A stretch of 64,000 bases of DNA from the sequence record OQ870555.1; one strand, given 5' to 3'. A model generated the notes under the pieces. The model was not told the DNA's origin. It saw only the letters and a program-made list of their open reading frames with translations, and did no database searches. Origin of the DNA: Escherichia phage PECP14. Below, one piece after another: positions 1 through 41,124 of this stretch. The translations under genes were made by a program, and so were the position numbers. How positions within the stretch are numbered: position 1 is the first letter of the stretch; the number at the start of each line of letters is the position of its first letter.

Positions 1-1565
1 TTAAATTTGGTGGAGTTCCTATCGGAGATTATAAGATCAGAATATCTGGTCAAGTAACTATGCCTGATGGTGTTACAGTTGATTCTTCTGGTTACTATGA
101 GTTCCCTAGTATTCTAACTGTAGCTTATAATTTTGTTCCTCCTACTGCACCTATCGATATTGTTTTTAAAGCTGCACGAATTGCTGATGGTAAAGAACGA
201 TATGATGTTAGAATTGAGTGGGATTGGGAACGCGGTGCTGGTGCTAATGTTCGTGAGTTCTTGGTTACTTATATAAACTCCGAAGAATACGCTAAGACTG
301 GCTGGGCTAAAGCTCAAAAGATAAACGTGGGGGCTGCTAGAGCTGCAACGATTATATCATTCCCATGGAAAGTTGAACATACCTTTAAGGTTTCATCAAT
401 TGCCTGGGGACCAAATAAGCAAGATATAACAGAATCAGCTCCTGTAACATTTATTCTGAATGAGGATACTCCTCTAGATAACAGTTTTGTCAATGAGACG
501 GGTATTGATGTTAACTATGCCTTTATTAAGGGTAGTATGAAAGATGGGGAAATCTGGAGACAGACATTCTTAATTGATGCAGCTACTGGTGCTATTAACA
601 TTGGTCTGCTCGATGAAGAAGGAAAAGCACCTATTTCTTTCGACCCTATAAATCGTGTTGTTAACGTTGATGGTAAAGTAATTACTAGAGATATTAATGC
701 TGCGAACTTTATCATGACTAACTTGTCTGGTAAAGATAATCCAGCAATTTACACTCAAGGTAAATCTTGGGGAGATAATAACTCTGGTATTTGGATGGGT
801 ATGGATAATACCTCTGCCAAAGCGAAACTAGACATTGGTAATGCTACACAATGGATACGTTATGATGGTACTACTCTGCGCATCTCTAGTGGTGTAGTAA
901 TTGGAACGCCAAATGGTGACGTAGATATTGGAACTGGTTTACAAGGTAAGCAAACAGTATTTGTTTATAAGTTAGCAACATCTTTACCGGCCAAACCGCT
1001 AGAACAAGATTATCCGCCTCCTGGTTGGTCAAAAACTCCACCTAACCGTACAGATATGACACAAAATATCTATGCGACTACAGGTACACTTGATCCAGTT
1101 ACTAACAAACTTCTTGAAGGTACTAGCTGGTCTGATGTAGTTCAGTGGAGTGGTACTGAAGGTACTATAGGACATGATGGACAGCGTGGTCCTGGGATGT
1201 ACTCCATGGGTATTCCTGGACTAGGTGGTTGGGATGATGGACAAGCTAACGCATTCTTCCAAAATAACTTTGGAAAACCTCCGGTTAAGTATGATGTTCT
1301 AACACAATTTAACAGTAATGCTCCGCAAACAGCATTTACCCGTCAATGGAACGGAGCTGGATGGATTAACCCTGCAATGGTTCTTCATGGCAATATGATT
1401 GTTAATGGGACTGTTACTGCGGATAAGATTGTGGCAGGAAATGCCTTCTTATCGCAAATCGGTGTTAATATAATCTACGATAGAAATGCTGCATTATCAG
1501 GGAACCCTGAAGCATACTACAAGATGAAGATAGACCTAAATAGTGGGTATATCCATATAAGGTAA
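1..1565 (+). CDS. tail/baseplate structural protein, 5'-partial (pb4-like by position)
   Basis: Frame of ORF 60..1565 is open to the window edge (no in-frame stop in 3..59), so the gene probably starts upstream; beta-rich FN3-like segments; sits just upstream of the fibre genes. Confidence 0.55.
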
Positions 1566-1570
1566 TTATA

Positions 1571-1993
1571 ATGAGTACAGAAAACCGAGTTATTGATATT
1601 GTTGTTGATGAAAAAGTACCTTATGGTCTTATCATGCAATTTATGGATGTTGATGATAGTGTATATCCACCAACAGAAGTTCCTGTTAACTTGACGGGGT
1701 ATTCTCTCCGAGGGACTATTAAGTCTAGTTTAGATGAGAACGCCGAGGTTCTAGCTAATTTTAAAGCTCGTGTTATTGATGCTGCTCAAGGTGCTGCTGC
1801 AATTAGTCTTTCTGTTGCAGACGTTACAAATATTGGTGAAAAAGCATCTAAAGAACGTGATAAGTACAACCCAAGACAACGTTTTGCAGGTTATTATGAT
1901 ATCCTAATGACTCGTGATGTGATTGGCTCTGAAGTCAGTTCTTTCCGTATTATGGAAGGTAAAGTATACATCAGCGATGGAGTAACTCAATAA
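1571..1993 (+). CDS. small tail protein (140 aa), p132/collar-like by size and position
   Basis: ATG at 1571 five nt after the upstream stop; ORF abuts the fibre gene (TAATG overlap at 1993). Confidence 0.45.
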
Positions 1994-4900
1994 TGGCACT
2001 TAAAACTAAAATTATTGTACAGCAGATTCTGAACATAGATGACACTACAACTACTGCTAGTAAGTATCCTAAATATACAGTAGTTTTAGGTAATTCTATT
2101 AGTTCTATTACTGCTGGTGAATTAACTGCTGCTGTAGAAGCCTCTGCTGCTTCTGCTGCGGCAGCAAAAGATTCTGAAATAGCAGCTAAGGAATCTGAAA
2201 CAAATGCTAAGGACTCGGAGAACCTAGCTGCAATTTATGCTACTTCTTCTGAAACATCTGCAACTCAATCTGCGGCATCTGCCGCGGAAGCTGAGAGACA
2301 AGCTGGTCTGTCACAAAAGAGTGCTGAAGCATCCGCTACATCGGCGGAAGAATCTAAAGGATTCAGGAATTCTGCTGAATTAGCTGCTCAAAATGCGGAG
2401 ACCAGTCGTAGACTTGCCGAACAAGCTAAAACTGCGGCTCAACAAGCTCAGACAGCTGCAGAAACTGCTAAGACTGGTGCTGAAACAGCAAAAGCAGGTG
2501 CAGAAGCTGCTGCTACAACTGCTGGAGAACATGCTGCTTCCGCTAAACAATCAGAATTAAATGCTAAAGAATCAGAAACTAATGCGGCTGGTTCTGCTGT
2601 AGAAGCAGGAGATAAGGCTGTAGATGCTACTACTGAGGCAAATCGTGCTAAGGCTGAAGCCGATCGCGCAGCTCAGATTGTAGATAGCAAGCTGGATAAA
2701 GAAGATATATCTGGTTTCATCAAAGTTTATAAGACAAAAGCAGAAGCTGATGCAGATGTTGCAAATCGTGTTCTGGGTGAAAAGATTCTAGTCTGGAACC
2801 AAACTGATTCAAAATATGGTTGGTATAAGGTTGCTGGTACTGCTGAGGCTCCTGTCCTAGAATTAGTAGAAATTGAACAGAAACTCGTATCAATCAATAA
2901 CGTTCATGCAGATGATGCTGGTAACGTACAGATCACTCTTCCAGGAGGTAACCCTTCTTTATGGTTAGGTGAAGTTACTTGGTTCCCTTACGATAAAGAT
3001 TCGGGTGTTGGATACCCTGGTGTTCTGCCAGCTGATGGTCGTGAAGTACTTCGTGTTGACTATCCTGATACTTGGGAAGCCATCGAAGCTGGTCTAATTC
3101 CTTCTGTTTCAGAAGCTGAATGGCAGGCCGGTGCAACTCTCTACTTCTCCACTGGTGATGGTTCCACAACCTTCCGTTTACCAGATATGATGCAAGGGCA
3201 GGCTTTTCGTGCACCTACTAAGGGAGAAGAAGACGGCGGTGCTATTAAGGAACAGATTCCTTATATCACTACTGTGAATGGAATTGGTCCTGCTGATGAT
3301 ACTGGAGCTATTAAGCTTCCTTACGTGGCAATGGTCAATGGAACTATTCGTCCAGATGAGAACGGAAATCTAGCACTAGGTAACGTAGTAACCAAAAACG
3401 TTTGGAACGGTACTGATGGAGAAGTCTTACTAAGGGGTGCATTTGGTTTAGGTGGTGCTGGTATAATTCTTAATGAACCAGATCTAGTATCCTTCTTTAA
3501 AGCAATGCGTGCTTTCGGTTCAGGGTATTATAGAAATGATAACGAGAGTAACTTAGTAATCCCTAAGTATTCTGCTGGATTCTACTCTAAAGTTGGAGAT
3601 ACCCATACCTTTATTTGTTCTGCCTATAGCAATGGTGTTGCTTTTGTAGCTTCTGCTTCTGATAGAGATTTAGATGAAGAATCTACAGTACATACTAATA
3701 TTCTTTATGGTACTGCAAATAAGCCTGATTTAAATAATGATACTCAAGGTGTCTTAGGTCTCGATAAAGGAGGAACAGGAGCTTCTACAGTTAGTTCTGC
3801 CAAAACTAACCTAGAAGTGGATAGAATAAAGCAGCTAGTAGGAGGAACACATATAACCTCTCAGGATCAAAATATAGTGTTTATGGTTCAGGACACTAAA
3901 ACCTGGGGGGTATACGACCATTCTGAAAACAAGTGGATATCTTTACCTGTTGAACATGGGGGTACTGGAGCTACTGAGCCAGTTCAAGCTAGAAAAAATT
4001 TAGGGGCTGCAAGTGCCGGTATTAACTCCGATATTACTCAGCTACGTAATATGGAGGGTTGGCCTCTTAGCATTAAGAACGGTGGTATTATTACTCGTAA
4101 ATACCACGCAGTTCCTTCGGATGGGTTTTACTTAGGATCGGAAGTTTTTTCTGCTCAGGTCCAACTGGATAATTCAGAGGATCCAGATACCCCTCGTTTA
4201 GAGGCATTATTTTACGCTGAAGGTAACTATGCCCAATCTCGTACTGAAAGGGCTACAGTAGCTGCTTATAGGCGTACTGCAGATGGTTCGTTAACTGCTA
4301 CTAAATATGCTAACCTGTACATGGATTCAGGGGCTTGGAATGCAGAACGTATGCAAGCTCTAGGGTATTCTAAAGGTTGGGACGATGATTCCTTTGGTTT
4401 CCTCGCTCCTTTTCAAGCTTCTGATGTAACGGGCAATGATCATGGATTCGTACCTATTATTAGTGCTATGACTCAATCCACAGGTGGCTACCCAATGAGG
4501 GCTACTACTGGATTAATATCTCGAGGTACTAGTACTTGGCCTGCCTATGCATTTAGACTTCGTGGAGATTCTAATTGGGGATGTACCTATCAGTTCCACA
4601 TGACAGGGGATATTGACGGATGGGGGTCAGACTATAATAACGTTGTCTTTAACTTTACTTACACAAAAAATGCGGTGTCGGATATCAATCTAAAAGATAA
4701 TATTCAAGACGTATCGGGTGAAGAATCTCTTGAAAACATTGAAAAAATGGAGTTCAAGAAATTCACCTATAAGTTTGATAAGAAAAAGAGTATTAGACGT
4801 GGTGTTATTGCACAACAAATAGAGTTGATTGATCCTCAATATGTTAAAGCTATTGGCAATCCTGAAACCGACGATATTACTTTAACCCTAGATACCAATC

Positions 4901-5076
4901 CATTGTTAATGGATGCTTTAGCTGCTATTAAGGTATTATCTGAAAGAAATAAGTCTCTTGAGACTAAACTACAAGAGATGTCTACTGTTATTGAAAACAT
5001 TAACGAAAAGCTTAATTTGATGACTAGATTATCAAATATAGAAGCAGAGTTAGATAAAATGAAAGGTACTAGTTAA
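1993..5076 (+). CDS. L-shaped tail fibre protein A with C-terminal intramolecular chaperone (S74-type) domain
   Basis: 1027 aa; N-terminal Ala/Ser/Glu-rich helical repeats; C-terminus ...SDINLKDNIQDVSGEESLENIEKMEFKKFTYKF...GVIAQQIELIDPQYV... matches the self-cleaving chaperone module of T5 pb1-type fibres. Confidence 0.8.
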   Translation: MALKTKIIVQQILNIDDTTTTASKYPKYTVVLGNSISSITAGELTAAVEASAASAAAAKDSEIAAKESETNAKDSENLAAIYATSSETSATQSAASAAEAERQAGLSQKSAEASATSAEESKGFRNSAELAAQNAETSRRLAEQAKTAAQQAQTAAETAKTGAETAKAGAEAAATTAGEHAASAKQSELNAKESETNAAGSAVEAGDKAVDATTEANRAKAEADRAAQIVDSKLDKEDISGFIKVYKTKAEADADVANRVLGEKILVWNQTDSKYGWYKVAGTAEAPVLELVEIEQKLVSINNVHADDAGNVQITLPGGNPSLWLGEVTWFPYDKDSGVGYPGVLPADGREVLRVDYPDTWEAIEAGLIPSVSEAEWQAGATLYFSTGDGSTTFRLPDMMQGQAFRAPTKGEEDGGAIKEQIPYITTVNGIGPADDTGAIKLPYVAMVNGTIRPDENGNLALGNVVTKNVWNGTDGEVLLRGAFGLGGAGIILNEPDLVSFFKAMRAFGSGYYRNDNESNLVIPKYSAGFYSKVGDTHTFICSAYSNGVAFVASASDRDLDEESTVHTNILYGTANKPDLNNDTQGVLGLDKGGTGASTVSSAKTNLEVDRIKQLVGGTHITSQDQNIVFMVQDTKTWGVYDHSENKWISLPVEHGGTGATEPVQARKNLGAASAGINSDITQLRNMEGWPLSIKNGGIITRKYHAVPSDGFYLGSEVFSAQVQLDNSEDPDTPRLEALFYAEGNYAQSRTERATVAAYRRTADGSLTATKYANLYMDSGAWNAERMQALGYSKGWDDDSFGFLAPFQASDVTGNDHGFVPIISAMTQSTGGYPMRATTGLISRGTSTWPAYAFRLRGDSNWGCTYQFHMTGDIDGWGSDYNNVVFNFTYTKNAVSDINLKDNIQDVSGEESLENIEKMEFKKFTYKFDKKKSIRRGVIAQQIELIDPQYVKAIGNPETDDITLTLDTNPLLMDALAAIKVLSERNKSLETKLQEMSTVIENINEKLNLMTRLSNIEAELDKMKGTS

Positions 5077-7061
5077 TGTCACGTAATTTAATGCCAAAAA
5101 GTGGGGCTATGGCCCCATATGTTGTAGTTAATAGAGACGCCGCAGTTGCCGGCGTTTTCTCTGTTGATGGAGAAGCTGGTGCTGTTGTGCTAACTTCCAA
5201 ATACCTGCAAATCTCTAAGTATACTACTGATAAAGCTGCTACTGATGCAGCTATCAATAATATTAACGAGTCGATTGGTAATATTAATACTGCATTAGGA
5301 GGTGTTAATACTACTTTAGATACTAAAGCTGCTAAAGGTGCCAATAACGATATTACAGAATTAAATGCACTTACTAAAGCTATTAAAATTTCTCAAGGTG
5401 GTACTGGGGCAGTAACGCTAGAAAATGCTAGAGCAAATCTACAAGTAGAACGCCTACGTCAGCAAGATAACGGAACTTTTATTACCTCTCCTGACGGTAA
5501 ATATTCTTTATTTATCTATAATAGTGGAGATTTTGGTTTAATTAATAGTGCTAGTACAGCAGTTAGTGCTATGAAAGTTGCTTTCGGTGGTACGGGTGGA
5601 ACTACTCCTAAAACTGCAAGAAAAGGCCTTAATGTCCCTGTTGGTGCCTTGGCTGAGATAGTACCTGATGGAGATAACGTATTGAACTATGTAGCTGTTG
5701 CTGGCCAGAGTGGGTATTATTCCTCTGGTGACGCAATAGTTAACGGGCCTCCCAAGCAAGAGGGTTGGTGGACGTATAACTTCCACTGTCATGGAGTAGA
5801 CATAAATGGTGTGGCACAATACGGTATACTTCGTGCAGTTGGATTGTCTGGTAGTTCCTGGGTTAACGTTCTTGATGGTACTGATAACTGGAGAGGATGG
5901 CAGGAACAATTTAATGTTCAAACTACTGTTCAAATCTCTAATGGGGGTACTGGTGCTCAGAGTGTAGGACAAGCAAGAAGTAATCTTGGAATTGGTGAAA
6001 CTGATATTCCTGTTTTTAGGGGTGTGAATCTTATTGAAAAGAATGGTGCTAATTCCGGCATTCTTTACCTAATAAACAAGAACGCAGAAGGTGTGCAACT
6101 TTCATATTCCAGGATCTACAATGAAATTCAAGGAGCGACCGCTAAAGCAACAATACAAGTAACAAGAGAAGGTGGTGATAATAACTATTATCAATTTGAC
6201 GAGCATGGTAATGCACTAAACTATAACTCTATAACAGTAGGTCGTGGTATTGGTAACGCTCTTGGTGATAATTCATTGGTTATTGGTGATACTGACACTG
6301 GCTTTAAATGGGGTGGTGATGGTATTATTCAAATTCATTGCAATGGTAGTAATATTGCATCTTATGAAGCGCACAATATGCATATTAATGGATTACTTAC
6401 AATATGGCCTACTGAGAATAACGCAAATGGGGTTAGAGTTTCAGGCGCTAGAACTGGTGGCGGTAATGCGTTAATTGGGGGTCAAATTGCTGGCGGCGGC
6501 TGGGATGGTTGGCGAGATCGCGCATCTGGTCTACTTGTTGAACTACCAGGTGATGATGCCGCATCAAACATATTCAAGGCTGTTAGGTGGGGCGGTGATT
6601 GGGCTGCTGGTCTTGATGTTGTAAGATATGGTGCTGGAGGTTGTGAGGCGCACCTTAATATAAGAGGTGCAACTTACACATTTAATGATGCTGGGTATGC
6701 GTCTGCTGTTCAGTGGGTTAACACATCCGATATTCGCCTGAAAGCAAATCTAAAAGAGATTGAAAGCGCTAAAGAAAAAGTGAAATCGATTAAGGGTTAT
6801 ACTTATTTTAAGCGTAATAATCTTGATGAAGATGAACACTCTATTTATTCTGAGGAAGCGGGTGTAATAGCTCAGGATGTGCAGGCTGTTTTGCCGGAGG
6901 CTGTTTATAAAATCTCTAACAGTGAGTATTTAGGTGTAAGTTATAGTGGTATTACCGCTCTCCTAGTTAACGCTTTTAATGAACTTAATGAAGTTGTTGA
7001 AAAGCAGCAGCAAGAAATTGATGAACTTAAGAAATTGGTAAAACAATTACTTGATAAGTAA
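5076..7061 (+). CDS. second L-shaped tail fibre protein (LtfB-like) with C-terminal intramolecular chaperone domain
   Basis: 661 aa; Gly-rich beta-helix-like body; C-terminus ...SDIRLKANLKEIESAKEKVKSIKGYTYFKRNN...AGVIAQDVQAVLPEAVYK... is a second copy of the chaperone module. Confidence 0.75.
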   Translation: MSRNLMPKSGAMAPYVVVNRDAAVAGVFSVDGEAGAVVLTSKYLQISKYTTDKAATDAAINNINESIGNINTALGGVNTTLDTKAAKGANNDITELNALTKAIKISQGGTGAVTLENARANLQVERLRQQDNGTFITSPDGKYSLFIYNSGDFGLINSASTAVSAMKVAFGGTGGTTPKTARKGLNVPVGALAEIVPDGDNVLNYVAVAGQSGYYSSGDAIVNGPPKQEGWWTYNFHCHGVDINGVAQYGILRAVGLSGSSWVNVLDGTDNWRGWQEQFNVQTTVQISNGGTGAQSVGQARSNLGIGETDIPVFRGVNLIEKNGANSGILYLINKNAEGVQLSYSRIYNEIQGATAKATIQVTREGGDNNYYQFDEHGNALNYNSITVGRGIGNALGDNSLVIGDTDTGFKWGGDGIIQIHCNGSNIASYEAHNMHINGLLTIWPTENNANGVRVSGARTGGGNALIGGQIAGGGWDGWRDRASGLLVELPGDDAASNIFKAVRWGGDWAAGLDVVRYGAGGCEAHLNIRGATYTFNDAGYASAVQWVNTSDIRLKANLKEIESAKEKVKSIKGYTYFKRNNLDEDEHSIYSEEAGVIAQDVQAVLPEAVYKISNSEYLGVSYSGITALLVNAFNELNEVVEKQQQEIDELKKLVKQLLDK

Positions 7062-7064
7062 AAG

Positions 7065-7096
7065 AAAACCCCAGTGGATTTCCACTGGGGTTTATT
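7065..7096. terminator. bidirectional rho-independent terminator between convergent tail and replication modules
   Basis: AAAA-CCCCAGTGG-ATTT-CCACTGGGG-TTTATT: perfect 9-bp stem, A-run before and T-run after, between the stop at 7061 and the minus-strand stop at 7098. Confidence 0.8.
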
Positions 7097-7097
7097 A

Positions 7098-7364
7098 TTA
7101 TCTGCTGCCAGCAATAACACCTAAGTTAAACACTGCTAACATAGCTCTAAGAGTAGGATCTTCTGAATTGCTACATAGTTCGACAAAAGCCTCTTCATCC
7201 CACTGGATTACATTGCCTTCACGATCTACCTTAAGAACTACGTTATTCACATCCGGTTCTGCTACCATAACATGATGATACGTAGCGGGATGTTCAAATG
7301 ATCCTATCATATTAGGATCAGCAAAATTATTTACTTCCTGAGCTTCCAAAGCCGCCTTCTCCAC
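7098..7364 (-). CDS. hypothetical protein (88 aa, GTG start)
   Basis: ORF track; overlaps the dUTPase 3' end; no recognisable domain. Confidence 0.4.
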   Translation of the reverse strand: MEKAALEAQEVNNFADPNMIGSFEHPATYHHVMVAEPDVNNVVLKVDREGNVIQWDEEAFVELCSNSEDPTLRAMLAVFNLGVIAGSR

Positions 7365-29828: not shown

Positions 29829-30344
29829 TTATACCTTAAGTTTCTGAAGAGCCTTACACATTTCAAGATCTGGACTAAATTCCAGCATATAGCTGATAGC
29901 ATTTAAATCTTGAAGGTTTATTCCAGTCCTGCCATTTACAATAACAGTAGGAAATTGGTACATCATAGCACCAGCATCATCTAGGACGCACCAATGCTTG
30001 AGCTTATGTTTTTCTACGAAACGTAAGACAGAATTACCCCGAGATAAACCACCTCCAGTAAAATCTGTTGTACCAAGAAAACGATCGATCAAACCGAGTC
30101 CGGTCATAATCTGAACGTTCTCCATTTCATTTCGTACAGAAAACCATGAAGATACCCCAACAATCATTATTGGGGATGGCTTAAGAAAGTTCTGAAAAGC
30201 CTGGAGTAATGGCTTGTAAACCCAATCACCACCAAAGAATAGCTTCTCACTATCTGGAGCATGATGGTGAGAGATGCTCGAATTGAGCACCCCATCAATA
30301 TCCAGGAAAATCACAGGAGTATTACTTATTTCCACCAGTAGCAT
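29829..30344 (-). CDS. HAD-superfamily phosphatase-like protein
   Basis: Motif VIFLDIDGVLN near the N-terminus; start uncertain (30368 or 30344). Confidence 0.55.
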   Translation of the reverse strand: MLLVEISNTPVIFLDIDGVLNSSISHHHAPDSEKLFFGGDWVYKPLLQAFQNFLKPSPIMIVGVSSWFSVRNEMENVQIMTGLGLIDRFLGTTDFTGGGLSRGNSVLRFVEKHKLKHWCVLDDAGAMMYQFPTVIVNGRTGINLQDLNAISYMLEFSPDLEMCKALQKLKV

Positions 30345-30507
30345 CCCACGTCCAGACTTTAACTTCATCAGTAAAAGGAACTGGAACCTTCAATTCACCT
30401 TTACCCCACATAACAGATAGGAACAGAGAATAAATGGTAATCATACCGATTAGGTTGACAAACCATACTAGACCTTTCCAGATACCCTTAAAAATCTTCT
30501 TCACCAT
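30322..30507 (-). CDS. small membrane protein
   Basis: Start moved to ATG at 30507 with RBS AAGGAGGGAG; one hydrophobic helix. Confidence 0.4.
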   Translation of the reverse strand: MVKKIFKGIWKGLVWFVNLIGMITIYSLFLSVMWGKGELKVPVPFTDEVKVWTWDATGGNK

Positions 30508-30670
30508 ATTCTCCCTCCTTAATAAGGAACTCTTTCCATTCTGCTGTATCCTCATAGATAACGCAGAAATCATCACTCTTCCATGAGAAGTCATCAGTAG
30601 CAAATTCGAAACGGTAGCACCAACTACCGTCTGGCCATACTAAAAGATCACACATGCTTTTCTGGGACAT
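30488..30670 (-). CDS. hypothetical small acidic protein
   Basis: Start moved to ATG at 30670 with RBS GGAGGG inside the end of the Sir2-like gene. Confidence 0.4.
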   Translation of the reverse strand: MSQKSMCDLLVWPDGSWCYRFEFATDDFSWKSDDFCVIYEDTAEWKEFLIKEGEYGEEDF

Positions 30671-31499
30671 AAATATTTCCCTCCATAAAAGCTTCAACTT
30701 GATCAATAAAGTGTTTATTACCAAAAACTTCGGCAGCTCCAGCACGCCATACAGTAACACCACGTTTCTCATACTCAAGCTGTTCGTCATAACGAACTTG
30801 TGGGTTAACAACCATCATCTTAGTTCCACGACATACAGCAGGAAATAGCTCCCAGTTGAAGTCGATTACTTGGTTGCTACAACCTACTACAATAACCATA
30901 TCATTGCTAGTAAGTGTATCAAACAGGTTAATCTGACCCATATACCACGGAGCCGTCTCACCAAAGAATGTTACGTTTGGTTTTACCCATTCGTAATCCT
31001 CAGGGGCAATCGCAGTATACCCAACATCTTCGATGATTTGGTTGCGACCCTGACGATAGATCACCTCTTTCAAGTACCCGTGAGCGTGAATGATTTCATC
31101 ACGAGGGATACCAGCACGTTCCAGAAGGTCATCAACGTTAGTAGTGAAGTTCTTCACGCTATCCTCACCATAACGCTGGAACCATTCTGCAATTCGCAGA
31201 TGGGCAATGTTAGGCTCAACAGTCTGTAATTCCTGACGACGCATGTTGTAGAACTCATGAGTCTTGAGATACAGATCGTTACCATCTTTATCAATGCCAG
31301 GGAAACGAGCACTGAAGTAGTTAGGATCATCTTCACCACAGAAGCGACGGAAGCCAGCTTCAAAGTTAGGCAAGCTACATACTTCCTCTAGATCGTACTC
31401 ATCCCACAAGGATTTCCCACTAGCAGTATCAGTACGGAAAGCACGAACACCACTATCTACACTCAAACCTGCACCACTAACAACGATTAGTCTACGCAT
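30648..31499 (-). CDS. Sir2-family (sirtuin-like) NAD-binding protein
   Basis: 283 aa; N-terminus VVSGAGLSVDSGVRAFR matches the sirtuin GAG(I/L)S..SGI..FR motif; later TTNVDDL...HG resembles the NID/HG block; no Zn-Cys cluster seen. Confidence 0.7.
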   Translation of the reverse strand: MRRLIVVSGAGLSVDSGVRAFRTDTASGKSLWDEYDLEEVCSLPNFEAGFRRFCGEDDPNYFSARFPGIDKDGNDLYLKTHEFYNMRRQELQTVEPNIAHLRIAEWFQRYGEDSVKNFTTNVDDLLERAGIPRDEIIHAHGYLKEVIYRQGRNQIIEDVGYTAIAPEDYEWVKPNVTFFGETAPWYMGQINLFDTLTSNDMVIVVGCSNQVIDFNWELFPAVCRGTKMMVVNPQVRYDEQLEYEKRGVTVWRAGAAEVFGNKHFIDQVEAFMEGNIYVPEKHV

Positions 31500-31693
31500 T
31501 ATACGATTCCTTGCTTGAATCCTTCGATGATATTTTGGAGCAGAATTGCTTCTTCTGGGCGAACCTTCTCTTGCTTAATAAGCATATCCAAACCAGCAAT
31601 ACAGGTAGCTACTCCAGCATTATACCCAGCATTCCACTGCTCCATGAGCATATTTTCTAAATTACTTTTTAGATTCTGATTCAAGAAGTCCAT
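31499..31693 (-). CDS. hypothetical small protein
   Basis: Start moved to ATG at 31693 with RBS GGAGG; stop overlaps the Sir2-like start (TAATG). Confidence 0.4.
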   Translation of the reverse strand: MDFLNQNLKSNLENMLMEQWNAGYNAGVATCIAGLDMLIKQEKVRPEEAILLQNIIEGFKQGIV

Positions 31694-31865
31694 AAAGTTT
31701 TTCCTCCAATTCCATAATACGATTTTCGTAAGAAGCACGCAGCTTCTCGATGGACAAAGCACGAACTGTAACTTCATCTGAATTGATCGCTAGCTGAGCT
31801 AGATCTTCTGTTTCCATACGTCCGTTGTAAATTAAGCGATATTTAAGATGTTTTACGTTTTTCAT
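31662..31865 (-). CDS. hypothetical small protein
   Basis: 67 aa ORF with ATG start. Confidence 0.4.
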   Translation of the reverse strand: MKNVKHLKYRLIYNGRMETEDLAQLAINSDEVTVRALSIEKLRASYENRIMELEEKLYGLLESESKK

Positions 31866-31874
31866 TCTTGTTCC

Positions 31875-32156
31875 TTAGTTCTGTACTGTAAATTCATTCT
31901 TATCACAGTGAGCATAATAATACCCATACATACGATAAATTTTCACAGCCTTAGTAGACCCCTTCGATTCTTCATAATCAATCCAGAGCCACTTGTCTTT
32001 ACCTACATAATGTACCCGAAACTTCTTAACTTTCTTATCATTCCATGTTGCAACAACACGACGATAATCAAATCCGCCCAACCAATCTAGAGCCTTACGT
32101 TCTTCACTAGGCTCTCCAAGATGGGAAACATCTACTTTTGGAAGCAATTCGCTCAT
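31875..32156 (-). CDS. hypothetical protein
   Basis: 93 aa ORF just downstream of nrdD on the minus strand; no radical-SAM CxxxCxxC motif, so not an NrdG activase. Confidence 0.5.
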   Translation of the reverse strand: MSELLPKVDVSHLGEPSEERKALDWLGGFDYRRVVATWNDKKVKKFRVHYVGKDKWLWIDYEESKGSTKAVKIYRMYGYYYAHCDKNEFTVQN

Positions 32157-32254
32157 AGCTTTCTCCTCTCAAATTTATAAATCAATTATACATAAGTTTT
32201 AGCTCGAAAGCAAATAAAATAAAAGCCAGGTCGACTAGCAACCTGGCTGATTCA

Positions 32255-34129
32255 TTATTTAGCGCGAATGTCTTGATGTTTCACTCGACCCATAACCTCA
32301 TGTTGTTTACCTGGGTTAAACGGACGAGCACCTGGATTTCCAAGATATCCACAAACTCGACGAGTTACCTCAAGAGTCTCAGGATCATGATTGCCACAAA
32401 TTGGGCATTTGAAACCATCCTCAGAAGCTATAGTTTCACCCAAGAACCCACATTCCCCACAAGAGTCTACTGGAGTATTAATACCGAAGTAATGAACTTT
32501 ACTTGCAGCATAGTTAATAACCCATTCCAGTGCATCAGGGAATCGTTTCATATCCGGTAATTCCACATAGGAAATGCACCCACCAGAAGCAATAGGAGTA
32601 AAGTTAGACTCATAATCAAACTTCACATTTGGAGCAACCTTACGTTCTACATCAAGGTGATGGGAATTAGTGTAATATCCTTTAGCCAGAATATCTTCAT
32701 GCTCTGGGAAATACTCACGGTCTAGGCGACAGAAGCGATCACATAGAGATTCAGATGGTGTAGCATACAGACTATACCCTAATTGAGTCTCTTCCTTCTT
32801 CTGATCAGCACGATCACGCATGTATTGTAGCACACGTTGAACGAACTTGATACAAGACTCAGACATTGTATCTACATCTTTACCAAACATGAGCTGCAAC
32901 ATTTCGTGGCAACCAATATATCCTAGAGATACAGAAGCACGCTTGTAGAAATGATCAAATACATATTCATCTGGCCCCAGACGTAATCCAAAGGCTCCTG
33001 ACATATAGAGGATGGGCGCAGCTTTAGCTTGAATGTATTTTAAGCGATCAACCCTCCACTCCAATGCTTTTAACGCGGTATCCACACGCAGCTCAAGCAG
33101 ATCGAAGAATAGATCAATATTTCCTTCCGCTTCGATAGCGATTCGAGGAAGGTTTACGGAAACAACGCCTAAGTTGTTACGACCAGAAGTTTCACCATCT
33201 TCCGCAGCAGCCAGGAACGAACGACAGCCCATAGAGACTTTGTAGTCCCCCGTAACTTCTACAACCTTATCATAACTGATGTAGTCAGGATACATACGTT
33301 CAGCAGTACATTTCATAGCTAACTTCTTGATATCATAGTTAACATCACCAGGTTTCATGTTTACGCCCTCACGCAAAACAAATACCAGTTTAGGGAAGAT
33401 AGCTGTACGTTTATTGATACCCAAACCATCCATACGTACTTCTAGTATTGCTTTCTGTACAAGACGTGCTTCCCAAGAAGTTCCTAGACCAAAACCAAAG
33501 GTAATAAACGGACTTTGACCATTAGAGTTGAACATCGTATTGATTTCATACTCCAGGCCCTGACAGGCATCGTAAACTTCTTTCTCAGTCATTTCCGTAG
33601 CCATTACAGATGCTTTGGCTTCATCCTTAGTCCAACGCTTTGCAAACGCATGATTCTTATCATAAGACTTACGAACATAAGGAGCCAATACTTCATCTAA
33701 TCGGTCTACAGAAGTACCCCCATATTGATGTGAACTAACCTGAGTGATAATCTGAGCTGTGATAGCAGCCGCAGTAGTAATAGAGTTTGGTGTACTGATT
33801 TCAGCATTACCAACCTTCATACCATTCTTCAACATATCTTCCAAAGCAACCAGGCAACAGTTAGTCATACCTAATGCAGCGTAATCAGCATCATGGAAGT
33901 GAATATCACCAATCATGTGAGCATTTCGAATCTGGATTGGCATTTCTTCCAGAATCAGATATTTACTCAATTCCCCTGCAAGCATATCCCTTTGTGTAGG
34001 GAAACGTTCTGAGGGCTTATTGGCATTATTAAACAGCAGCTCTTCATCTGCTGAACCTTCGATAATTTCTTTGCAGTTTCGAATCAAGGACTGCATTCCT
34101 TTATACTTTAGTTCTTCATTGCGATTCAT
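32255..34129 (-). CDS. nrdD: anaerobic ribonucleoside-triphosphate reductase
   Basis: 624 aa; C-terminal glycyl-radical motif RVCGYLG and Zn-ribbon cysteines (CGECG...CPICG); RBS GAAGGAGGG. Confidence 0.9.
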   Translation of the reverse strand: MNRNEELKYKGMQSLIRNCKEIIEGSADEELLFNNANKPSERFPTQRDMLAGELSKYLILEEMPIQIRNAHMIGDIHFHDADYAALGMTNCCLVALEDMLKNGMKVGNAEISTPNSITTAAAITAQIITQVSSHQYGGTSVDRLDEVLAPYVRKSYDKNHAFAKRWTKDEAKASVMATEMTEKEVYDACQGLEYEINTMFNSNGQSPFITFGFGLGTSWEARLVQKAILEVRMDGLGINKRTAIFPKLVFVLREGVNMKPGDVNYDIKKLAMKCTAERMYPDYISYDKVVEVTGDYKVSMGCRSFLAAAEDGETSGRNNLGVVSVNLPRIAIEAEGNIDLFFDLLELRVDTALKALEWRVDRLKYIQAKAAPILYMSGAFGLRLGPDEYVFDHFYKRASVSLGYIGCHEMLQLMFGKDVDTMSESCIKFVQRVLQYMRDRADQKKEETQLGYSLYATPSESLCDRFCRLDREYFPEHEDILAKGYYTNSHHLDVERKVAPNVKFDYESNFTPIASGGCISYVELPDMKRFPDALEWVINYAASKVHYFGINTPVDSCGECGFLGETIASEDGFKCPICGNHDPETLEVTRRVCGYLGNPGARPFNPGKQHEVMGRVKHQDIRAK

Positions 34130-34481
34130 TATACCCTCCTTCTCTAACTAAGACTACTATTATAACTCATTCGAAGGCGGATGTCAACAATATTTTACTA
34201 TAAAGTTCTGTAACATGATCTGAGTCAAAAAATTTTATTTGCCAACCTCTACTAAAAATAGTATAATCACGCACCCGTGTACGCGATATAAAATGATTAT
34301 CTAGTACCATACATCTCCCAGTAAAAGCAAGTAAATTTTTTATTTAAATGCAATATCATAGGCTTATTTAAAATTGTAGTTGCCTTTTACTGTATATAAT
34401 GGTATAATATATTTGTAAGTTGATAAACAAGATCTTTTTGTTGATCCTCTGTTAGCGAAGTACACTATAGGAGTGTTATTT

Positions 34482-35234
34482 ATGGGAAAACCGCGTCAGA
34501 AAAGAGAGAACCGTAATGGTTCAAGAAAGCGTAGCAACAAGTACGAGAGTAACGTAATTCAGGCTGACTTTTCGAATGATTACGCCAATCCAGTTGCTAA
34601 ATCCCTAGTTGGTAAAAACCGTGAGCAAAAATCATATATCAATATGATCAAGAATAACACAGTGACTGTGGGTATTGGTGAACCAGGTACTGGTAAAACC
34701 TTCATCCCGTCAGTTCTTGCAGCTCAGGAACTCGTAGACATTCACTCAGATATTGAGCAAGTGATCCTCGTGCGTCCGAACGAACCTCTAGGTAAATCTC
34801 TTGGTATGCTCCCAGGTGATCTGGCAGAAAAGCTAGAGCCTTGGTTGGAACCAATAGCCGATGGCATGAAATGGGCAATCGGTGATCACGCCTACAAAGG
34901 ATATGTCGAACGCCAGAAAATTAAATTCCTGGCTATCGAACATGCCCGTGGCCGAACTTTCAACAACTCCTATGTAATTGTCGATGAAGCTCAGAATATC
35001 TCCGTTGAAGCAATGATCTGTCTCCTGACTCGTGTCGGACAGGATTGCCGTTTAATCATCTGTGGAGATATCGCTCAGAAAGACATTAAGGGTGACTCCG
35101 GTCTAGCACTTCTTATGGAAGTCTATGAGAAGTACGAGAACGCCCCTTTCTCAATGATCGAACTAATTGATAACGTTCGTTCTGTTGAGTCTAAAGCATT
35201 CTACGATATCTTTAAGGATATGGGGAAGGTATAA
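34482..35234 (+). CDS. phoH: PhoH-like ATPase
   Basis: Walker A GEPGTGKTF, Walker B VIVDEAQN; ATG at 34482 with RBS AGGAG. Confidence 0.85.
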   Translation: MGKPRQKRENRNGSRKRSNKYESNVIQADFSNDYANPVAKSLVGKNREQKSYINMIKNNTVTVGIGEPGTGKTFIPSVLAAQELVDIHSDIEQVILVRPNEPLGKSLGMLPGDLAEKLEPWLEPIADGMKWAIGDHAYKGYVERQKIKFLAIEHARGRTFNNSYVIVDEAQNISVEAMICLLTRVGQDCRLIICGDIAQKDIKGDSGLALLMEVYEKYENAPFSMIELIDNVRSVESKAFYDIFKDMGKV

Positions 35235-35235
35235 T

Positions 35236-35478
35236 ATGGGAAACGTCGTACATCTGCACCGCAAAACTAAGATCCACCGTACTTCACTGAGTGCTGCTAA
35301 TATGATTACACGCAAAGAAGGGGAAGAAAGTCCAAAGACTTCCCTAGCGTGGAAAATTGTAGCCTCTAACCCAAACCGGCCATTCAATTATAACGAACTT
35401 TCAACATCAGTAGATATTCTTCTGAGGGCGAATGCGAAAGCAAAAGTAATTAATCAAGCCGAAAAACTAGACTGGTAA
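35236..35478 (+). CDS. hypothetical small basic protein
   Basis: ATG at 35236 (MGNVVHLHRK) with RBS GGGGAAGG. Confidence 0.5.
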   Translation: MGNVVHLHRKTKIHRTSLSAANMITRKEGEESPKTSLAWKIVASNPNRPFNYNELSTSVDILLRANAKAKVINQAEKLDW

Positions 35479-35599
35479 TATAGAAGGCCTGGGTATGAAA
35501 ATACTCGGGCCTTTTCTATCAGAAAATTTTATTTGCCAAATGACTGAGAATAAAGTAAACTATTTCCTTAATCCTGATAATTACAAAAAGGAAAGCCAA

Positions 35600-37930: not shown

Positions 37931-37938
37931 TAAAAACA

Positions 37939-37964
37939 AGGAGATCTTCGGGTCTCCTTTTTCT
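37939..37964 (+). terminator. rho-independent terminator after nrdA (UUCG tetraloop)
   Basis: AGGAGATC-TTCG-GGTCTCCT followed by TTTTTC. Confidence 0.7.
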
Positions 37965-37976
37965 TTGAAATTTTAC

Positions 37977-38005
37977 TTGCTAATCGCTACCAGATTTGCT
38001 ATAAT
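37977..38005 (+). promoter_or_regulatory. early promoter module ending 6 nt before the HNH endonuclease ATG
   Basis: TTGCTA-17 nt-TATAAT, then ATCTAT-ATG; implies a leaderless or very short-leader transcript. Confidence 0.6.
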
Positions 38006-38011
38006 ATCTAT

Positions 38012-38509
38012 ATGAAATTAACACAGAGTAGATTAAAAGAGCTAATCTCCTATGACCCTGAAACTGGCGAATTTACCTGGCTCCCAAGAAAAACTTTAGC
38101 AAAGCATTTATGGAACGCTAAAGCAGGAACCTATGATAAATTAGGGTATCTTCGTATAAAAGTTGAAGGAGTTCAATATTTAGCTCATCGCCTAGCCTTC
38201 TTGTATATGACTGGAGAAATACCAGAAGGAAAAATTGACCATAAAGATACTAATCCGTCTAATTGCGCCTGGGATAATCTCCGTGAAGCCACGAGTTCTC
38301 AAAATTCTATGAACTCGTGTGCAAGATCGGATAACCAGCTTGGAATGAAAAATATTCGTGTAAAAGGCACTTCATTTCAGGTTAGGATAGGCAAAGACGG
38401 CAAATCTTATACAAAAACTTTTAAAACCCTAGAAGAAGCTATAGAATGGAGAGACACCAAACTACTAGAACTTCATGGGGACTTTGCAAACAACGGAGAA
38501 GCTAAATGA
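38012..38509 (+). CDS. free-standing HNH homing endonuclease with AP2-type DNA-binding domain
   Basis: 165 aa; HNH core (...LAHRLAF...KIDHKDTNPSNCAWDNL...), AP2-like C-terminus (NIRVKGTSFQVRIGKDGKSYTKTFKTLEEAIEWRD); between nrdA and nrdB, 4-nt overlap with nrdB. Confidence 0.8.
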   Translation: MKLTQSRLKELISYDPETGEFTWLPRKTLAKHLWNAKAGTYDKLGYLRIKVEGVQYLAHRLAFLYMTGEIPEGKIDHKDTNPSNCAWDNLREATSSQNSMNSCARSDNQLGMKNIRVKGTSFQVRIGKDGKSYTKTFKTLEEAIEWRDTKLLELHGDFANNGEAK

Positions 38510-39651: not shown

Positions 39652-40181
39652 TGATAGCAGCAATCTATGCAACTGGGCCGAATGGGGAGTTCGGCCTCAA
39701 TGGTAAGCTCCCCTGGGGTTCTTTCAAAGAAGAACTAGATATCTTCTATGCTACATTGGATTCTCTAGCACCTGATAATATTATTGTAGGAGCAGGAACT
39801 TGGTTAGCCTTCCCTGAGACTCTGCAAAAAAGAATACTAGGAGATTCTGACCTATTTATTTATGCAAATAGACCACTACCTAACTCTGTAGGATCAGCTA
39901 CACGCATAAGCAACATTGGATACCGTCTGCCTGATTTTCTCAAGGAAGAGGTAACTGTAGTATTAGGGGGAGCAACTCTGCTTCTTGAAATGTATGTCAA
40001 AAATCATCTAGATATGGCGTATATCTCTACTATTACTTCAGCCACACCATTATCCGCTGATGTACATCTGCATCATCATATTACTTTAACTAATTCAATG
40101 GCAACTAGAATGGACTATGTGGCAGGACAGAATGCAGATAAAACGCTTTCATTCTTACAAGAATTGGTGATATTTAAATGA
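39651..40181 (+). CDS. frd: dihydrofolate reductase
   Basis: 176 aa; N-terminal DHFR pattern ([22 protein letters not shown]); lies beside thyA. Confidence 0.75.
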
Positions 40182-41032: not shown

Positions 41033-41037
41033 TTCAA

Positions 41038-41062
41038 ATAGCCCTTCGGGGCTATTATATTT
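41038..41062 (+). terminator. rho-independent terminator after thyA (UUCG tetraloop)
   Basis: TAGCCC-TTCG-GGGCTA followed by TTATATTT. Confidence 0.7.
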
Positions 41063-41071
41063 AAATTTCAT

Positions 41072-41100
41072 TTGCTTACTGAGTGAAATTCAAATATAAT
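41072..41100 (+). promoter_or_regulatory. early promoter module
   Basis: TTGCTT-17 nt-TATAAT, then ..ATAAATTGGAGACACTT-ATG. Confidence 0.65.
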
Positions 41101-41124
41101 ATATTTTATAAATTGGAGACACTT

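What the first reader, a model, noticed from the sequence alone, without database searches (positions are those of the whole stretch)
1993..7061. Two tandem tail-fibre genes, each with its own C-terminal intramolecular chaperone domain
Both the 1027-aa and 661-aa products end in the self-cleaving chaperone module (SDINLKDNIQDVSGEE...; SDIRLKANLKEIESAKEK...), with different receptor-binding bodies. Branched or dual fibres are a known route to expanded O-antigen or host range in some T5-like phages. The 1027-aa protein also has a long Ala/Ser/Glu-rich repetitive N-terminal region (about 2100-2700) that may be recombination-prone.
Basis: partly seen in the sequence, partly recalled or inferred. 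Interest (0 to 1): 0.5.

Follow-up and report, generated by a model that had tools for sequence, protein, structure and literature searches.

The report
Two-gene branched tail fibre, T5-like phage
This is the already described two-protein (LtfA/LtfB) side tail fibre locus of a T5-like Salmonella phage, in which each protein carries its own self-cleaving folding domain; it is real and correctly read, but ordinary.

Summary
ORFs 1993-5076 (1027 aa) and 5076-7061 (661 aa) exist. Each ends in a Pfam Peptidase_S74 intramolecular chaperone domain (E=3e-12 and 1.3e-14). The catalytic Ser/Lys pair (LtfA S896/K901, LtfB S551/K556) aligns with S1264/K1269 of T5 pb1.

The window is an Epseptimavirus (T5-like). 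This locus is 98-99% identical to deposited phages (STK8t, KFSSM, UTK0010, "A148").

The genes are orthologues of ltfA and ltfB of phage DT57C:
- LtfA 1-458 is 85% identical to the DT57C LtfA chain in PDB 8HQZ.
- LtfB 1-174 is 57% identical to DT57C LtfB.
- The kuravirus-like docking module of LtfA and the attachment module of LtfB are both present.

The second ORF is not a frameshifted continuation of the first.

The Ala/Ser/Glu-rich stretch is the heptad coiled-coil shaft. It carries only short, imperfect 21-nt repeats. Relatives differ there by multiples of 7 residues.

Side findings: homology breakpoints cluster at GGTGA...NLG motifs, and the LtfB tip is 83% identical to a T1-like phage fibre.

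Branching, cleavage and O-antigen binding are inferred by homology, not shown here. Verdict: already known (Golomidova 2016; Ayala 2023); low interest.

The parts
1571..1993 (+). ltfC: 140-aa collar protein that anchors the lateral fibres.
   Evidence: Pfam PF23926 LtfC, E=8.6e-16. 94% identical to DT57C LtfC. Its TAA overlaps the ltfA ATG as TAATG.
1993..2109 (+). LtfA aa 1-39: N-terminal strands that insert into the LtfC ring.
   Evidence: Lies within the 1-458 stretch that is 85% identical to DT57C LtfA, PDB 8HQZ. The role is taken from the DT57C cryo-EM structure (PMC10713586).
2110..2688 (+). LtfA aa 40-232: Ala-rich heptad coiled-coil shaft.
   Evidence: Hydrophobicity power at period 3.5 is reached by 0.8% of shuffles, and Ala occupies a fixed heptad position. 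21-nt repeats. 49% identical to T5 Ltf 1-215. In DT57C the helix starts at T40 and forms a trimeric coiled coil. Indels in relatives come in 7-aa multiples.
2689..3366 (+). LtfA aa 233-458: domain shared with kuravirus proximal long-tail-fibre proteins; inferred docking site for LtfB. Contains a sub-threshold tail-collar-like motif.
   Evidence: Matches SU10 gp12 (PDB 7Z47_D) at E=1.4e-45 over 234-441. 32% identity to EP335 gp12. tblastn finds it in 245 phage records, T5-like and kuraviruses. Pfam Collar 17.8 bits, below the 24-bit cut-off. The docking role comes from Golomidova 2016.
3367..3759 (+). LtfA aa 459-589: shaft segment.
   Evidence: Residues 479-578 are 42% identical to T5 Ltf 386-487. 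Homology with DT57C LtfA ends at 452-458.
3760..4008 (+). LtfA aa 590-672: hinge module bounded by two GGTGA...NLG motifs.
   Evidence: 37% identical to LtfB 105-185. Modelled at pLDDT 71-88. Homology breakpoints at 609-612 and 670-677.
4009..4677 (+). LtfA aa 673-895: allele-specific distal body, the putative receptor-binding domain of LtfA.
   Evidence: Only 12 of 120 homologue clusters share it at 70% identity or more. No similarity to the LtfB tip. The AF2 model is unreliable here, pLDDT below 50. Function is inferred from position.
4678..5073 (+). LtfA aa 896-1027: intramolecular chaperone / Peptidase_S74 domain. Predicted cleavage V895|S896; catalytic pair S896/K901.
   Evidence: PF13884 E=3e-12. 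Invariant Ser/Lys columns in alignment A1. Long C-terminal helix in the model.
5076..5387 (+). LtfB aa 1-104: N-terminal attachment module (aa 1-56) followed by a helix (aa 49-101).
   Evidence: 68% identical over 56 aa to EP335 gp13, and 57% over 1-174 to DT57C LtfB. Found in 283 phage records, 148 of them covering at least 80% of the 129-aa query. The model has residues 1-45 disordered and a helix at 49-101.
5388..5927 (+). LtfB aa 105-284: GGTGA hinge module (105-187) and a beta domain (188-284).
   Evidence: Hinge similarity to LtfA. LtfB 212-378 is 35% identical to EscoHU1 LtfA 510-682. pLDDT 79-89 over about 190-280.
5928..6725 (+). LtfB aa 285-550: distal receptor-binding body, a cassette shared with T1-like (Drexlerviridae) lateral fibres.
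6726..7058 (+). LtfB aa 551-661: intramolecular chaperone / Peptidase_S74 domain. Predicted cleavage T550|S551; catalytic pair S551/K556.
   Evidence: PF13884 E=1.3e-14. Alignment A1. 6F45_A match E=3e-21. Helix 623-660 in the model.
7066..7093 (.). Bidirectional intrinsic terminator that closes the fibre operon.
   Evidence: 12-bp stem with 7 GC pairs, detected on both strands. RNA fold -23.4 kcal/mol, z=-4.9. T5 has an annotated bidirectional terminator at the same position.

Best explanation
The region is the ltfC-ltfA-ltfB lateral (L-shaped) tail-fibre operon of an Epseptimavirus (T5-like siphophage), of the DT57C type.

Shown here:
- Three translationally coupled genes joined by TAATG overlaps, closed by one bidirectional terminator.
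- The LtfA modules in order: a T5/DT57C-type N-terminus, an Ala-rich heptad coiled coil, a kuravirus-like central domain, a hinge, an allele-specific distal body, and a C-terminal S74 chaperone domain.
- The LtfB modules in order: a kuravirus/DT57C-type N-terminal attachment peptide, a helix, a hinge, a beta domain, a distal body, and its own S74 chaperone domain.
- A conserved Ser/Lys dyad in both chaperone domains.

Inferred by homology with DT57C, T5 pb1 and SU10:
- Three LtfA trimers thread their N-termini into the dodecameric LtfC collar.
- The LtfB trimer docks through its N-terminus onto the central LtfA domain, giving a branched fibre with two different tips.
- Each C-terminal chaperone drives trimer folding and is then removed by Ser-Lys autoproteolysis, at V895|S896 in LtfA and T550|S551 in LtfB. 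This unmasks the receptor-binding tips.
- The two tips bind different surface glycans reversibly, most probably O-antigen types of Salmonella/E. coli. That lets the phage pass the O-antigen shield before pb5 binds its outer-membrane protein receptor.
For: ORFs and overlaps. Terminator. S74 domains. Ser/Lys aligned with T5 S1264/K1269: with PMC4690869. The S-[DG]-x3-K motif is found in the last 200 residues of 226 of 239 homologues. LtfA 1-458 is 85% identical to the DT57C LtfA chain of PDB 8HQZ, and LtfC is 94% identical. LtfB 1-174 is 57% identical to DT57C LtfB and 1-56 is 68% identical to EP335 gp13. The central LtfA domain matches SU10 gp12 and EP335 gp12. Counts are similar for T5-like records with the docking domain (154 at 60% identity or more) and with the LtfB N-module (148). 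The same locus is annotated as two tail fibre genes in 98-99% identical phages and as LtfA/LtfB in EscoHU1. Published genetics shows that LtfB depends on LtfA, that the two have different O-antigen specificities, and that both carry pfam13884: PMC4728585. The LtfC-LtfA cryo-EM structure is in PMC10713586.
Against: No experiment on this phage exists. Even for DT57C the LtfA-LtfB junction has never been resolved; cryo-EM gave only weak density. The receptor-binding bodies here differ from those of DT57C, so the glycans bound are unknown. The AF2 monomer model of the LtfA distal body is unreliable, mean pLDDT 53, so its fold could not be examined. One relative, SIY1lw, is reported to have an LtfA-like protein but no LtfB (PMC12887010). 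The docking domain therefore does not strictly require a partner.
Confidence: 0.88

Rival explanations
1. Serial rather than branched fibre. LtfA would be a proximal half-fibre and LtfB the distal half joined at an elbow, as in kuravirus SU10 gp12/gp13. Only LtfB would contact the host, and the LtfA C-terminal body would be structural.
For: The LtfA central domain and the LtfB N-terminus are the modules of the SU10/EP335 proximal and distal fibre proteins. Some T5-like relatives have a short LtfA without an S74 domain (IrmaTschudi, 679 aa). The BASEL paper describes that arrangement as a proximal fibre carrying a distal receptor-binding protein.
Against: Here LtfA continues for 570 residues beyond the docking domain. 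It ends in a variable body plus its own S74 chaperone, the hallmark of a free receptor-binding tip. In DT57C/DT571/2, swapping the LtfA C-terminal region switches host specificity.
Confidence: 0.08
2. ORF2 is a frameshifted or decayed continuation of ORF1, that is, one ancestral fibre gene split by a sequencing error or mutation.
For: The ORFs abut with a 1-nt overlap in different frames. A laboratory deletion can fuse ltfA and ltfB into one ORF (DT530(1) and DT571/2-ABF).
Against: LtfA has a complete C-terminal chaperone domain that ends like its homologues. LtfB is homologous from Met1 to LtfB and gp13 proteins. The same boundary is present in independent genomes, and a spacer separates the genes in DT57C and EscoHU1.
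Confidence: 0.01
3. Redundant or vestigial second fibre. LtfB would be assembled, but its tip would bind no receptor relevant to current hosts; it would be a cassette carried along after horizontal transfer.
For: The LtfB tip is a cassette shared at 83% identity with T1-like coliphages. [quoted passage not shown]
Against: The ORF is intact, and the catalytic dyad and IMC are conserved. It is maintained at 93-99% identity in several independent isolates. In DT571/2 loss of LtfB abolishes growth on one host and destabilises the whole fibre.
Confidence: 0.03

Closest known systems
LtfA/LtfB branched L-shaped tail fibres of T5-like phages DT57C and DT571/2 (Golomidova et al. 2016, PMC4728585; Ayala et al. 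2023, PMC10713586, PDB 8HQZ)
   Same: Gene order pb4-ltfC-ltfA-ltfB. LtfC is 94% identical. LtfA 1-458 is 85% identical, covering the collar-insertion strands, the coiled coil and the docking domain. LtfB 1-174 is 57% identical. Both proteins end in pfam13884 with the S..K motif.
   Different: The distal bodies are unrelated to those of DT57C. The genes overlap by 1 nt instead of having a 38-nt spacer. There are no long ltfA/ltfB nucleotide repeats; the longest shared exact word is 13 nt. LtfB lacks the collar-type domain present in DT57C LtfB. The host genus is probably Salmonella.
Phage T5 pb1 (Ltf), single-protein L-shaped fibre with an intramolecular chaperone (Garcia-Doval et al. 2015, PMC4690869; PDB 4UW7/4UW8)
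   Same: Homologous N-terminal 230 aa (49% identity), a shaft segment (42%) and a C-terminal chaperone whose Ser1264/Lys1269 equivalents are conserved.
   Different: T5 has one 1396-aa protein and no ltfB. The polymannose-binding 'bullet' domain (970-1263) has no counterpart here.
Kuravirus / Gordonclarkvirinae long tail fibre pair (SU10 gp12+gp13, phiEco32 gp14+gp15, EP335 gp12+gp13)
   Same: LtfA 233-458 matches the central domain of the proximal protein, and LtfB 1-56 matches the N-terminus of the distal protein.
   Different: Those are podoviruses in which the proximal protein binds the adaptor. The N-terminus and the virion attachment are unrelated.
Endosialidase-type C-terminal intramolecular chaperone domain (Peptidase S74; K1F endoNF, GA-1 gp12, MYRF)
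   Same: Pfam family, Ser-Lys dyad, C-terminal position, trailing coiled-coil helix. A profile of these domains retrieves GA-1 gp12 (3GUD) and MYRF (7DC3).
   Different: It is attached to non-enzymatic fibre bodies rather than a sialidase. No depolymerase fold was detected in LtfB.
Lateral tail fibres of T1-like phages (Drexlerviridae, e.g. PaulSarasin, SRT8, tiwna Stf)
   Same: LtfB 285-658 (tip plus chaperone) is 60-83% identical to these proteins.
   Different: The N-terminal attachment parts differ, and the virion families differ.

Membership tests
Peptidase S74 / C-terminal intramolecular chaperone domain | Match to Pfam PF13884 above the gathering score | tested here: met
   LtfA 47.1 bits and LtfB 54.6 bits against a 22-bit cut-off.
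Peptidase S74 / C-terminal intramolecular chaperone domain | Scissile/catalytic Ser with a Lys five residues downstream, aligned to an experimentally defined site | tested here: met
   S896/K901 and S551/K556 fall in the invariant columns with T5 S1264/K1269. The T5 site is defined in PMC4690869.
Peptidase S74 / C-terminal intramolecular chaperone domain | Located at the extreme C-terminus and followed by a long (coiled-coil) helix | tested here: met
   AF2 models show helix 623-660 in LtfB and helix 529-584 of the fragment, equal to LtfA 968-1023.
Peptidase S74 / C-terminal intramolecular chaperone domain | Upstream residues that sense trimer folding (T5 Arg1250/Asp1239 equivalents) | tested here: inconclusive
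   The alignment upstream of the Ser is too divergent to assign equivalents.
Peptidase S74 / C-terminal intramolecular chaperone domain | Autoproteolytic release after trimerisation | not testable with these tools
   Needs protein expression or virion mass spectrometry.
LtfA/LtfB two-protein lateral tail fibre of T5-like phages (DT57C type) | Gene order ltfC-ltfA-ltfB downstream of pb4 in a T5-like genome | tested here: met
   Relatives are classified as Epseptimavirus.
LtfA/LtfB two-protein lateral tail fibre of T5-like phages (DT57C type) | LtfA N-terminus homologous to the part that inserts into the LtfC ring and forms the trimeric coiled coil | tested here: met
   85% identity over 1-458 to the LtfA chain of 8HQZ, and 49% to T5 Ltf 1-215.
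LtfA/LtfB two-protein lateral tail fibre of T5-like phages (DT57C type) | LtfA central domain related to phiEco32 gp14-type proximal fibres | tested here: met
   SU10 gp12 E=1.4e-45, EP335 gp12 32% identity, phiEco32 45%.
LtfA/LtfB two-protein lateral tail fibre of T5-like phages (DT57C type) | LtfB N-terminal ~45 aa related to phiEco32 gp15-type distal fibres | tested here: met
   68% identity over 56 aa to EP335 gp13, and 71-76% over 45-47 aa in many kuraviruses.
LtfA/LtfB two-protein lateral tail fibre of T5-like phages (DT57C type) | LtfB physically attached via LtfA (branch), with the two tips binding different O-antigens | not testable with these tools
   Inferred from DT57C/DT571/2 genetics. 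Needs mutants or cryo-EM.
T5 pb1-type single-protein L-shaped fibre | One ltf gene encoding the whole fibre | tested here: not met
   There are two genes.
T5 pb1-type single-protein L-shaped fibre | pb1 970-1263 polymannose-binding domain | tested here: not met
   No BLASTP similarity beyond T5 Ltf 1-215 and 386-487.
Kuravirus proximal/distal long tail fibre | Proximal protein N-terminus that binds the podovirus adaptor | tested here: not met
   The LtfA N-terminus is T5-type. EP335 gp12 aligns only from LtfA residue 223 onward.

The most novel reading that the evidence does not exclude
The short GGTGA...AR.NLG hinge motif is encoded by a conserved ~17-nt word present in both ltfA (3956-3972) and ltfB (5941-5957). 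It may act as a portable recombination junction through which receptor-binding cassettes are exchanged between ltfA, ltfB and the lateral-fibre genes of unrelated phage families (Drexlerviridae, kuraviruses). If so, the two-gene locus would serve as a two-slot cassette holder. Homology breakpoints among about 240 relatives do cluster at these motifs. This could equally reflect domain boundaries tolerated by selection rather than a preferred crossover site.
Probability: 0.35. Interest if true: 0.3.

Novelty: already known. Interest (0 to 1): 0.12.

Why it matters
The locus determines which O-antigen types this phage can penetrate, so it matters in practice for host-range prediction and for engineering Salmonella/E. 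coli biocontrol phages. Scientifically it adds nothing new. The two-gene arrangement, the paired chaperone domains and the branched-fibre model were published in 2016. Near-identical loci are already in GenBank. The only modestly useful products of this check are a residue-level module map, the predicted cleavage sites, and the observation that cassette boundaries sit at GGTGA hinge motifs.

Tried and rejected
(1) Frameshift or continuation hypothesis: rejected.

(2) Long direct repeats between ltfA and ltfB, as in DT57C, which would make the locus deletion-prone: not found. The longest shared exact word is 13 nt.

(3) True tandem DNA repeats in 2100-2700: only 21-nt-period arrays of 1.9-3.1 copies at 71-84% match.

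(4) AF2 monomer model of LtfA 440-1027: mean pLDDT 52.9, with the distal body below 50. It was therefore not used for fold comparison.

(6) Pfam scan of the hinge modules at E up to 10: no family. Only a sub-threshold Collar hit appeared in the LtfA docking domain.

(7) Attempt to link the published phi37 Ltf deletion A56-A97 and the host-range mutations at 468-556 to this LtfA. The paper gives no sequence or accession, so homology of positions could not be verified.

(8) Promoter scan: no more sigma-70-like sites than in shuffles, so it was uninformative.

Full report

Yes, exactly as written. The ORF listing gives a 1027-aa ORF at 1993..5076 and a 661-aa ORF at 5076..7061, both on the + strand and both starting at ATG. 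The quoted peptides are LtfA 896-911 and LtfB 551-568.

Pfam-A finds PF13884 (Peptidase_S74, 'chaperone of endosialidase') at the C-terminus of each protein. LtfA 896-951 scores 47.1 bits (E=3e-12) and LtfB 551-611 scores 54.6 bits (E=1.3e-14), against a curated cut-off of 22 bits. PHROGs places both proteins in tail-fibre families.

BLASTP of one protein against the other finds only two shared pieces: an 81-residue hinge module (LtfA 590-670 vs LtfB 105-185, 37% identity) and the chaperone domains (27%). Nothing links LtfA 673-895 to LtfB 285-550. The 'different receptor-binding bodies' are therefore real.

**2. Context**

Upstream lie the C-terminal part of the straight-fibre protein pb4 (60-1565; PF24168 and PF24171) and a 140-aa LtfC collar protein (1571-1993; PF23926). 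Downstream, convergently transcribed, are a small ORF, dUTPase, flap endonuclease D15, D14 and the SbcCD-like D13/D12 genes. This is the T5 gene order.

Megablast of 1500-7300 finds 376 phage records. The best are 'Campylobacter phage A148' (99.1%) and the Salmonella phages STK8t (98.9%), KFSSM (98.9%) and UTK0010 (97.9%). In STK8t (genus Epseptimavirus) the same two ORFs are annotated as tail fibre proteins. In EscoHU1 the syntenic genes are named L-shaped tail fiber protein A and B.

ltfC/ltfA and ltfA/ltfB are each joined by a TAATG stop/start overlap. A 12-bp-stem bidirectional terminator at 7066-7093 closes the unit (z=-4.9). It sits where T5 has an annotated bidirectional terminator.

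**3. What the two proteins are**

Against PDB sequences, LtfA 1-458 matches chain d of 8HQZ, the LtfA protein of phage DT57C, at E=2.5e-251. BLASTP gives 85% identity. LtfC is 94% identical to DT57C LtfC.

Other LtfA matches:
- LtfA 1-230 is 49% identical to T5 Ltf (pb1) 1-215.
- LtfA 479-578 is 42% identical to T5 Ltf 386-487.
- LtfA 223-670 is 32% identical to the proximal fibre protein gp12 of kuravirus EP335.
- LtfA 234-441 matches SU10 gp12 (7Z47_D) at E=1.4e-45.

LtfB matches:
- LtfB 1-174 is 57% identical to DT57C LtfB.
- LtfB 1-56 is 68% identical to the distal fibre protein gp13 of EP335.

These are precisely the relationships that Golomidova et al. (2016, PMC4728585) used to propose that LtfB is hung on the virion through LtfA, giving a branched fibre with two receptor-binding tips. 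That paper also notes that LtfA and LtfB both end in pfam13884. Their genetics shows three things. LtfA-null phages lose all fibres. LtfB-null phages lose one host and have unstable fibres. Swapping the LtfA C-terminal region switches O-antigen specificity.

Ayala et al. (2023, PMC10713586) solved the LtfC dodecamer with nine LtfA N-termini threaded into it. In that structure a trimeric coiled coil starts at T40. LtfB could not be resolved.

In the phage collection the LtfA docking domain occurs in 245 records. Of these, 154 are at 60% identity or more (T5-like) and 91 are below 60%, mainly kuraviruses. The LtfB N-module occurs in 283 records, 148 of them covering at least 80% of the query. 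The near-equal T5-like counts fit co-inheritance. One reported exception is SIY1lw, which has an LtfA-like protein without LtfB.

**4. The chaperone domains and the cleavage motif**

I aligned the C-termini of eight proteins: the window's LtfA and LtfB, DT57C LtfA and LtfB, EscoHU1 LtfA and LtfB, EP335 gp13 and T5 Ltf. Only four columns are invariant. Two of them are the Ser and the Lys five residues after it. They correspond to T5 Ser1264 and Lys1269.

For T5, S1264A blocks autoproteolysis. The mature protein ends at residue 1263, and only the cleaved tip competes for the receptor (PMC4690869).

The predicted processing sites here are V895|S896 in LtfA and T550|S551 in LtfB. The released domains would be 132 aa and 111 aa.

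A profile built from this alignment retrieves independent chaperone structures: S16 gp37 (6F45), MYRF (7DC3) and GA-1 gp12 (3GUD). An S-[DG]-x3-K motif is present in the last 200 residues of 226 of 239 homologues. The AF2 models show the expected long terminal helix. Cleavage itself is inferred, not shown.

**5. Not a frameshift**

- LtfA ends with a complete chaperone domain of the same length class as its homologues.
- LtfB is homologous from Met1 to LtfB and gp13 proteins.
- The boundary is the same in independent genomes.
- DT57C and EscoHU1 have an intergenic spacer at this point.

**6. The Ala/Ser/Glu-rich region**

Residues 36-235 are 31.5% Ala, 12.5% Glu, 12% Ser and 9% Thr. Written in rows of seven, Ala occupies a fixed position. 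Hydrophobicity power at period 3.5 is reached by only 0.8% of shuffles. This is the trimeric coiled-coil shaft seen in DT57C.

At DNA level, TRF finds three 21-nt-period arrays (21 nt = one heptad) of 1.9-3.1 copies at 71-84% match. The longest exact repeat is 13 nt. The genome therefore offers little substrate for homologous recombination here. It also lacks the long ltfA/ltfB repeats that make the DT57C locus deletion-prone.

Even so, among 87 N-termini aligned (86 homologue clusters plus T5 Ltf), every indel inside the coil proper (up to about residue 204) is a multiple of seven residues: 7, 3+4 or 14. The only non-heptad gaps lie at the C-terminal edge of the coil, around residues 220-230. 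Forty-six of the 87 have no indel at all.

A preprint on the Epseptimavirus phi37 reports an evolved Ltf deletion A56-A97, which is 42 aa or six heptads. In the window's LtfA both 51-56 and 93-98 read SAASAA. I could not verify that the positions are homologous.

**7. Module map and mosaicism**

BLASTP of 120 homologue clusters per protein gives the following conserved blocks and breakpoints.
- LtfA 1-201 is shared with single-fibre Epseptimaviruses at 76% identity.
- LtfA 1 to about 456 is shared with DT57C-type LtfA.
- Further LtfA breaks fall at 609-612 and 670-677.
- Only 12 clusters share the distal body 673-895 at 70% identity or more.
- LtfB breaks fall at 174 and 306-310, and HSP starts fall at 268-290.

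These positions coincide with GGTGA...AR.NLG motifs, at LtfA 593 and 656 and at LtfB 108, 171 and 290. The DNA word ATGGGGGTACTGGNGCT occurs at 3956-3972 and at 5941-5957. The megablast matches of 13 of the 30 best phages stop at query position 4458, which is window position 5957.

LtfB 285-658 is 83% identical to the lateral tail fibre of the T1-like phage PaulSarasin and 60-78% identical to many ~50-kb Drexlerviridae contigs. LtfB 212-378 is 35% identical to a segment of EscoHU1 LtfA. Modules therefore move between the two slots and between phage families.

This is consistent with what is generally known about tail-fibre mosaicism. I list it as a side observation rather than a discovery.

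**8. Structure prediction**

The LtfB monomer model has mean pLDDT 75. It shows a disordered N-terminal 45 residues (as expected for a docking peptide), a helix at 49-101, beta-rich domains, and the chaperone domain with a terminal helix.

The model of LtfA 440-1027 is poor, with mean pLDDT 53. Only the hinge and the chaperone domain are credible, so the fold of the LtfA tip remains unknown.

**9. Mechanism, with status of each step**

Shown here: gene structure, domain order, conserved catalytic dyad, homology to DT57C, T5 and kuravirus modules, and the operon terminator.

Inferred by homology:
- LtfA trimers anchor in the LtfC ring.
- LtfB docks on LtfA 233-458 by its N-terminus.
- Both chaperone domains assist trimer folding and are removed autocatalytically.
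- The two tips bind different O-antigen-type glycans reversibly, ahead of pb5 binding its outer-membrane receptor.

The identity of the glycans is unknown. The closest isolates were propagated on Salmonella Typhimurium and Enteritidis.

**10. Comparison and verdict**

The locus meets every sequence-testable criterion of the DT57C-type LtfA/LtfB system and of the S74 chaperone family. It fails the criteria of the single-protein T5 pb1 fibre. It shares two modules with the kuravirus fibre pair but not their attachment.

The arrangement is published, and near-identical loci are deposited and annotated. Novelty: already known. Interest: low (0.12).

Noticed in passing
window 3760-4008 (LtfA aa 590-672); 5388-5636 and 5928-5996 (LtfB); 17-nt word at 3956-3972 and 5941-5957: Homology breakpoints among about 240 LtfA/LtfB relatives cluster at GGTGA...AR.NLG hinge motifs. 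The megablast matches of 13 of the 30 best phages end exactly at the 17-nt motif copy, window position 5957.
   Followed up: partly
window 5928-7058 (LtfB aa 285-661): The LtfB tip plus chaperone is 83% identical to the lateral tail fibre of the T1-like phage PaulSarasin and 60-78% identical to many ~50-kb Drexlerviridae contigs. This is a receptor-binding cassette shared across phage families.
   Followed up: partly
window 1500-7300 vs GenBank MG065642.1: The best database match (99.1%) is a record named 'Campylobacter phage A148', host Campylobacter jejuni. Everything else this similar is a Salmonella/E. coli Epseptimavirus, so the host label of that record looks doubtful.
   Followed up: no
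window 30000-50000 vs 1500-7300: The replication and nucleotide-metabolism region is closest to other phages (PYC03 98.0%, Stitch 97.2%) than the fibre locus is (A148, STK8t). The genome is therefore mosaic, and the fibre locus has its own history.
   Followed up: partly
window 2110-2688 (LtfA aa 40-232): Among 87 aligned N-termini (86 homologue clusters plus T5 Ltf), the indels inside the coiled coil proper are multiples of 7 residues (7, 3+4, 14); small non-heptad gaps occur only at its C-terminal edge near residues 220-230. SAASAA occurs at aa 51-56 and 93-98, 42 residues apart. That is the same span as a deletion (A56-A97) reported for phage phi37 Ltf in bioRxiv 2023.11.08.566301.
   Followed up: partly
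related proteins P0146 (IrmaTschudi, 679 aa) and P0137 (EH7, 1020 aa): Some LtfA homologues have no Peptidase_S74 hit on record (precomputed Pfam). IrmaTschudi's 679-aa protein stays homologous only up to the first hinge motif (LtfA 1-609). This suggests a third architecture: a proximal-only LtfA carrying LtfB, beside the single-Ltf and the two-tip forms.
   Followed up: no
window 1571-1993: LtfC is one intact 140-aa ORF here. The T5 reference record splits it into T5.135 and T5.136, which Ayala et al. attribute to a frameshift error in the T5 sequence.
   Followed up: no
window 5069-5344 (-), 5538-5972 (-), hairpin 5102-5117 (-): Antisense ORFs of 91 and 144 aa and a terminator-like hairpin lie inside ltfB. 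The T5 record annotates an antisense gene (T5.134) with its own promoter inside the 3' part of ltf. No evidence was gathered that anything comparable is expressed here.
   Followed up: no
window 3007-3243 (LtfA aa 339-417): A tail-collar-like motif (...STGDGSTTFRLPDMMQG...) sits inside the presumed LtfB-docking domain. It is below the Pfam threshold (17.8 vs 24 bits). It resembles second copies in DT57C LtfA 609-685 and DT57C LtfB 273-348.
   Followed up: partly
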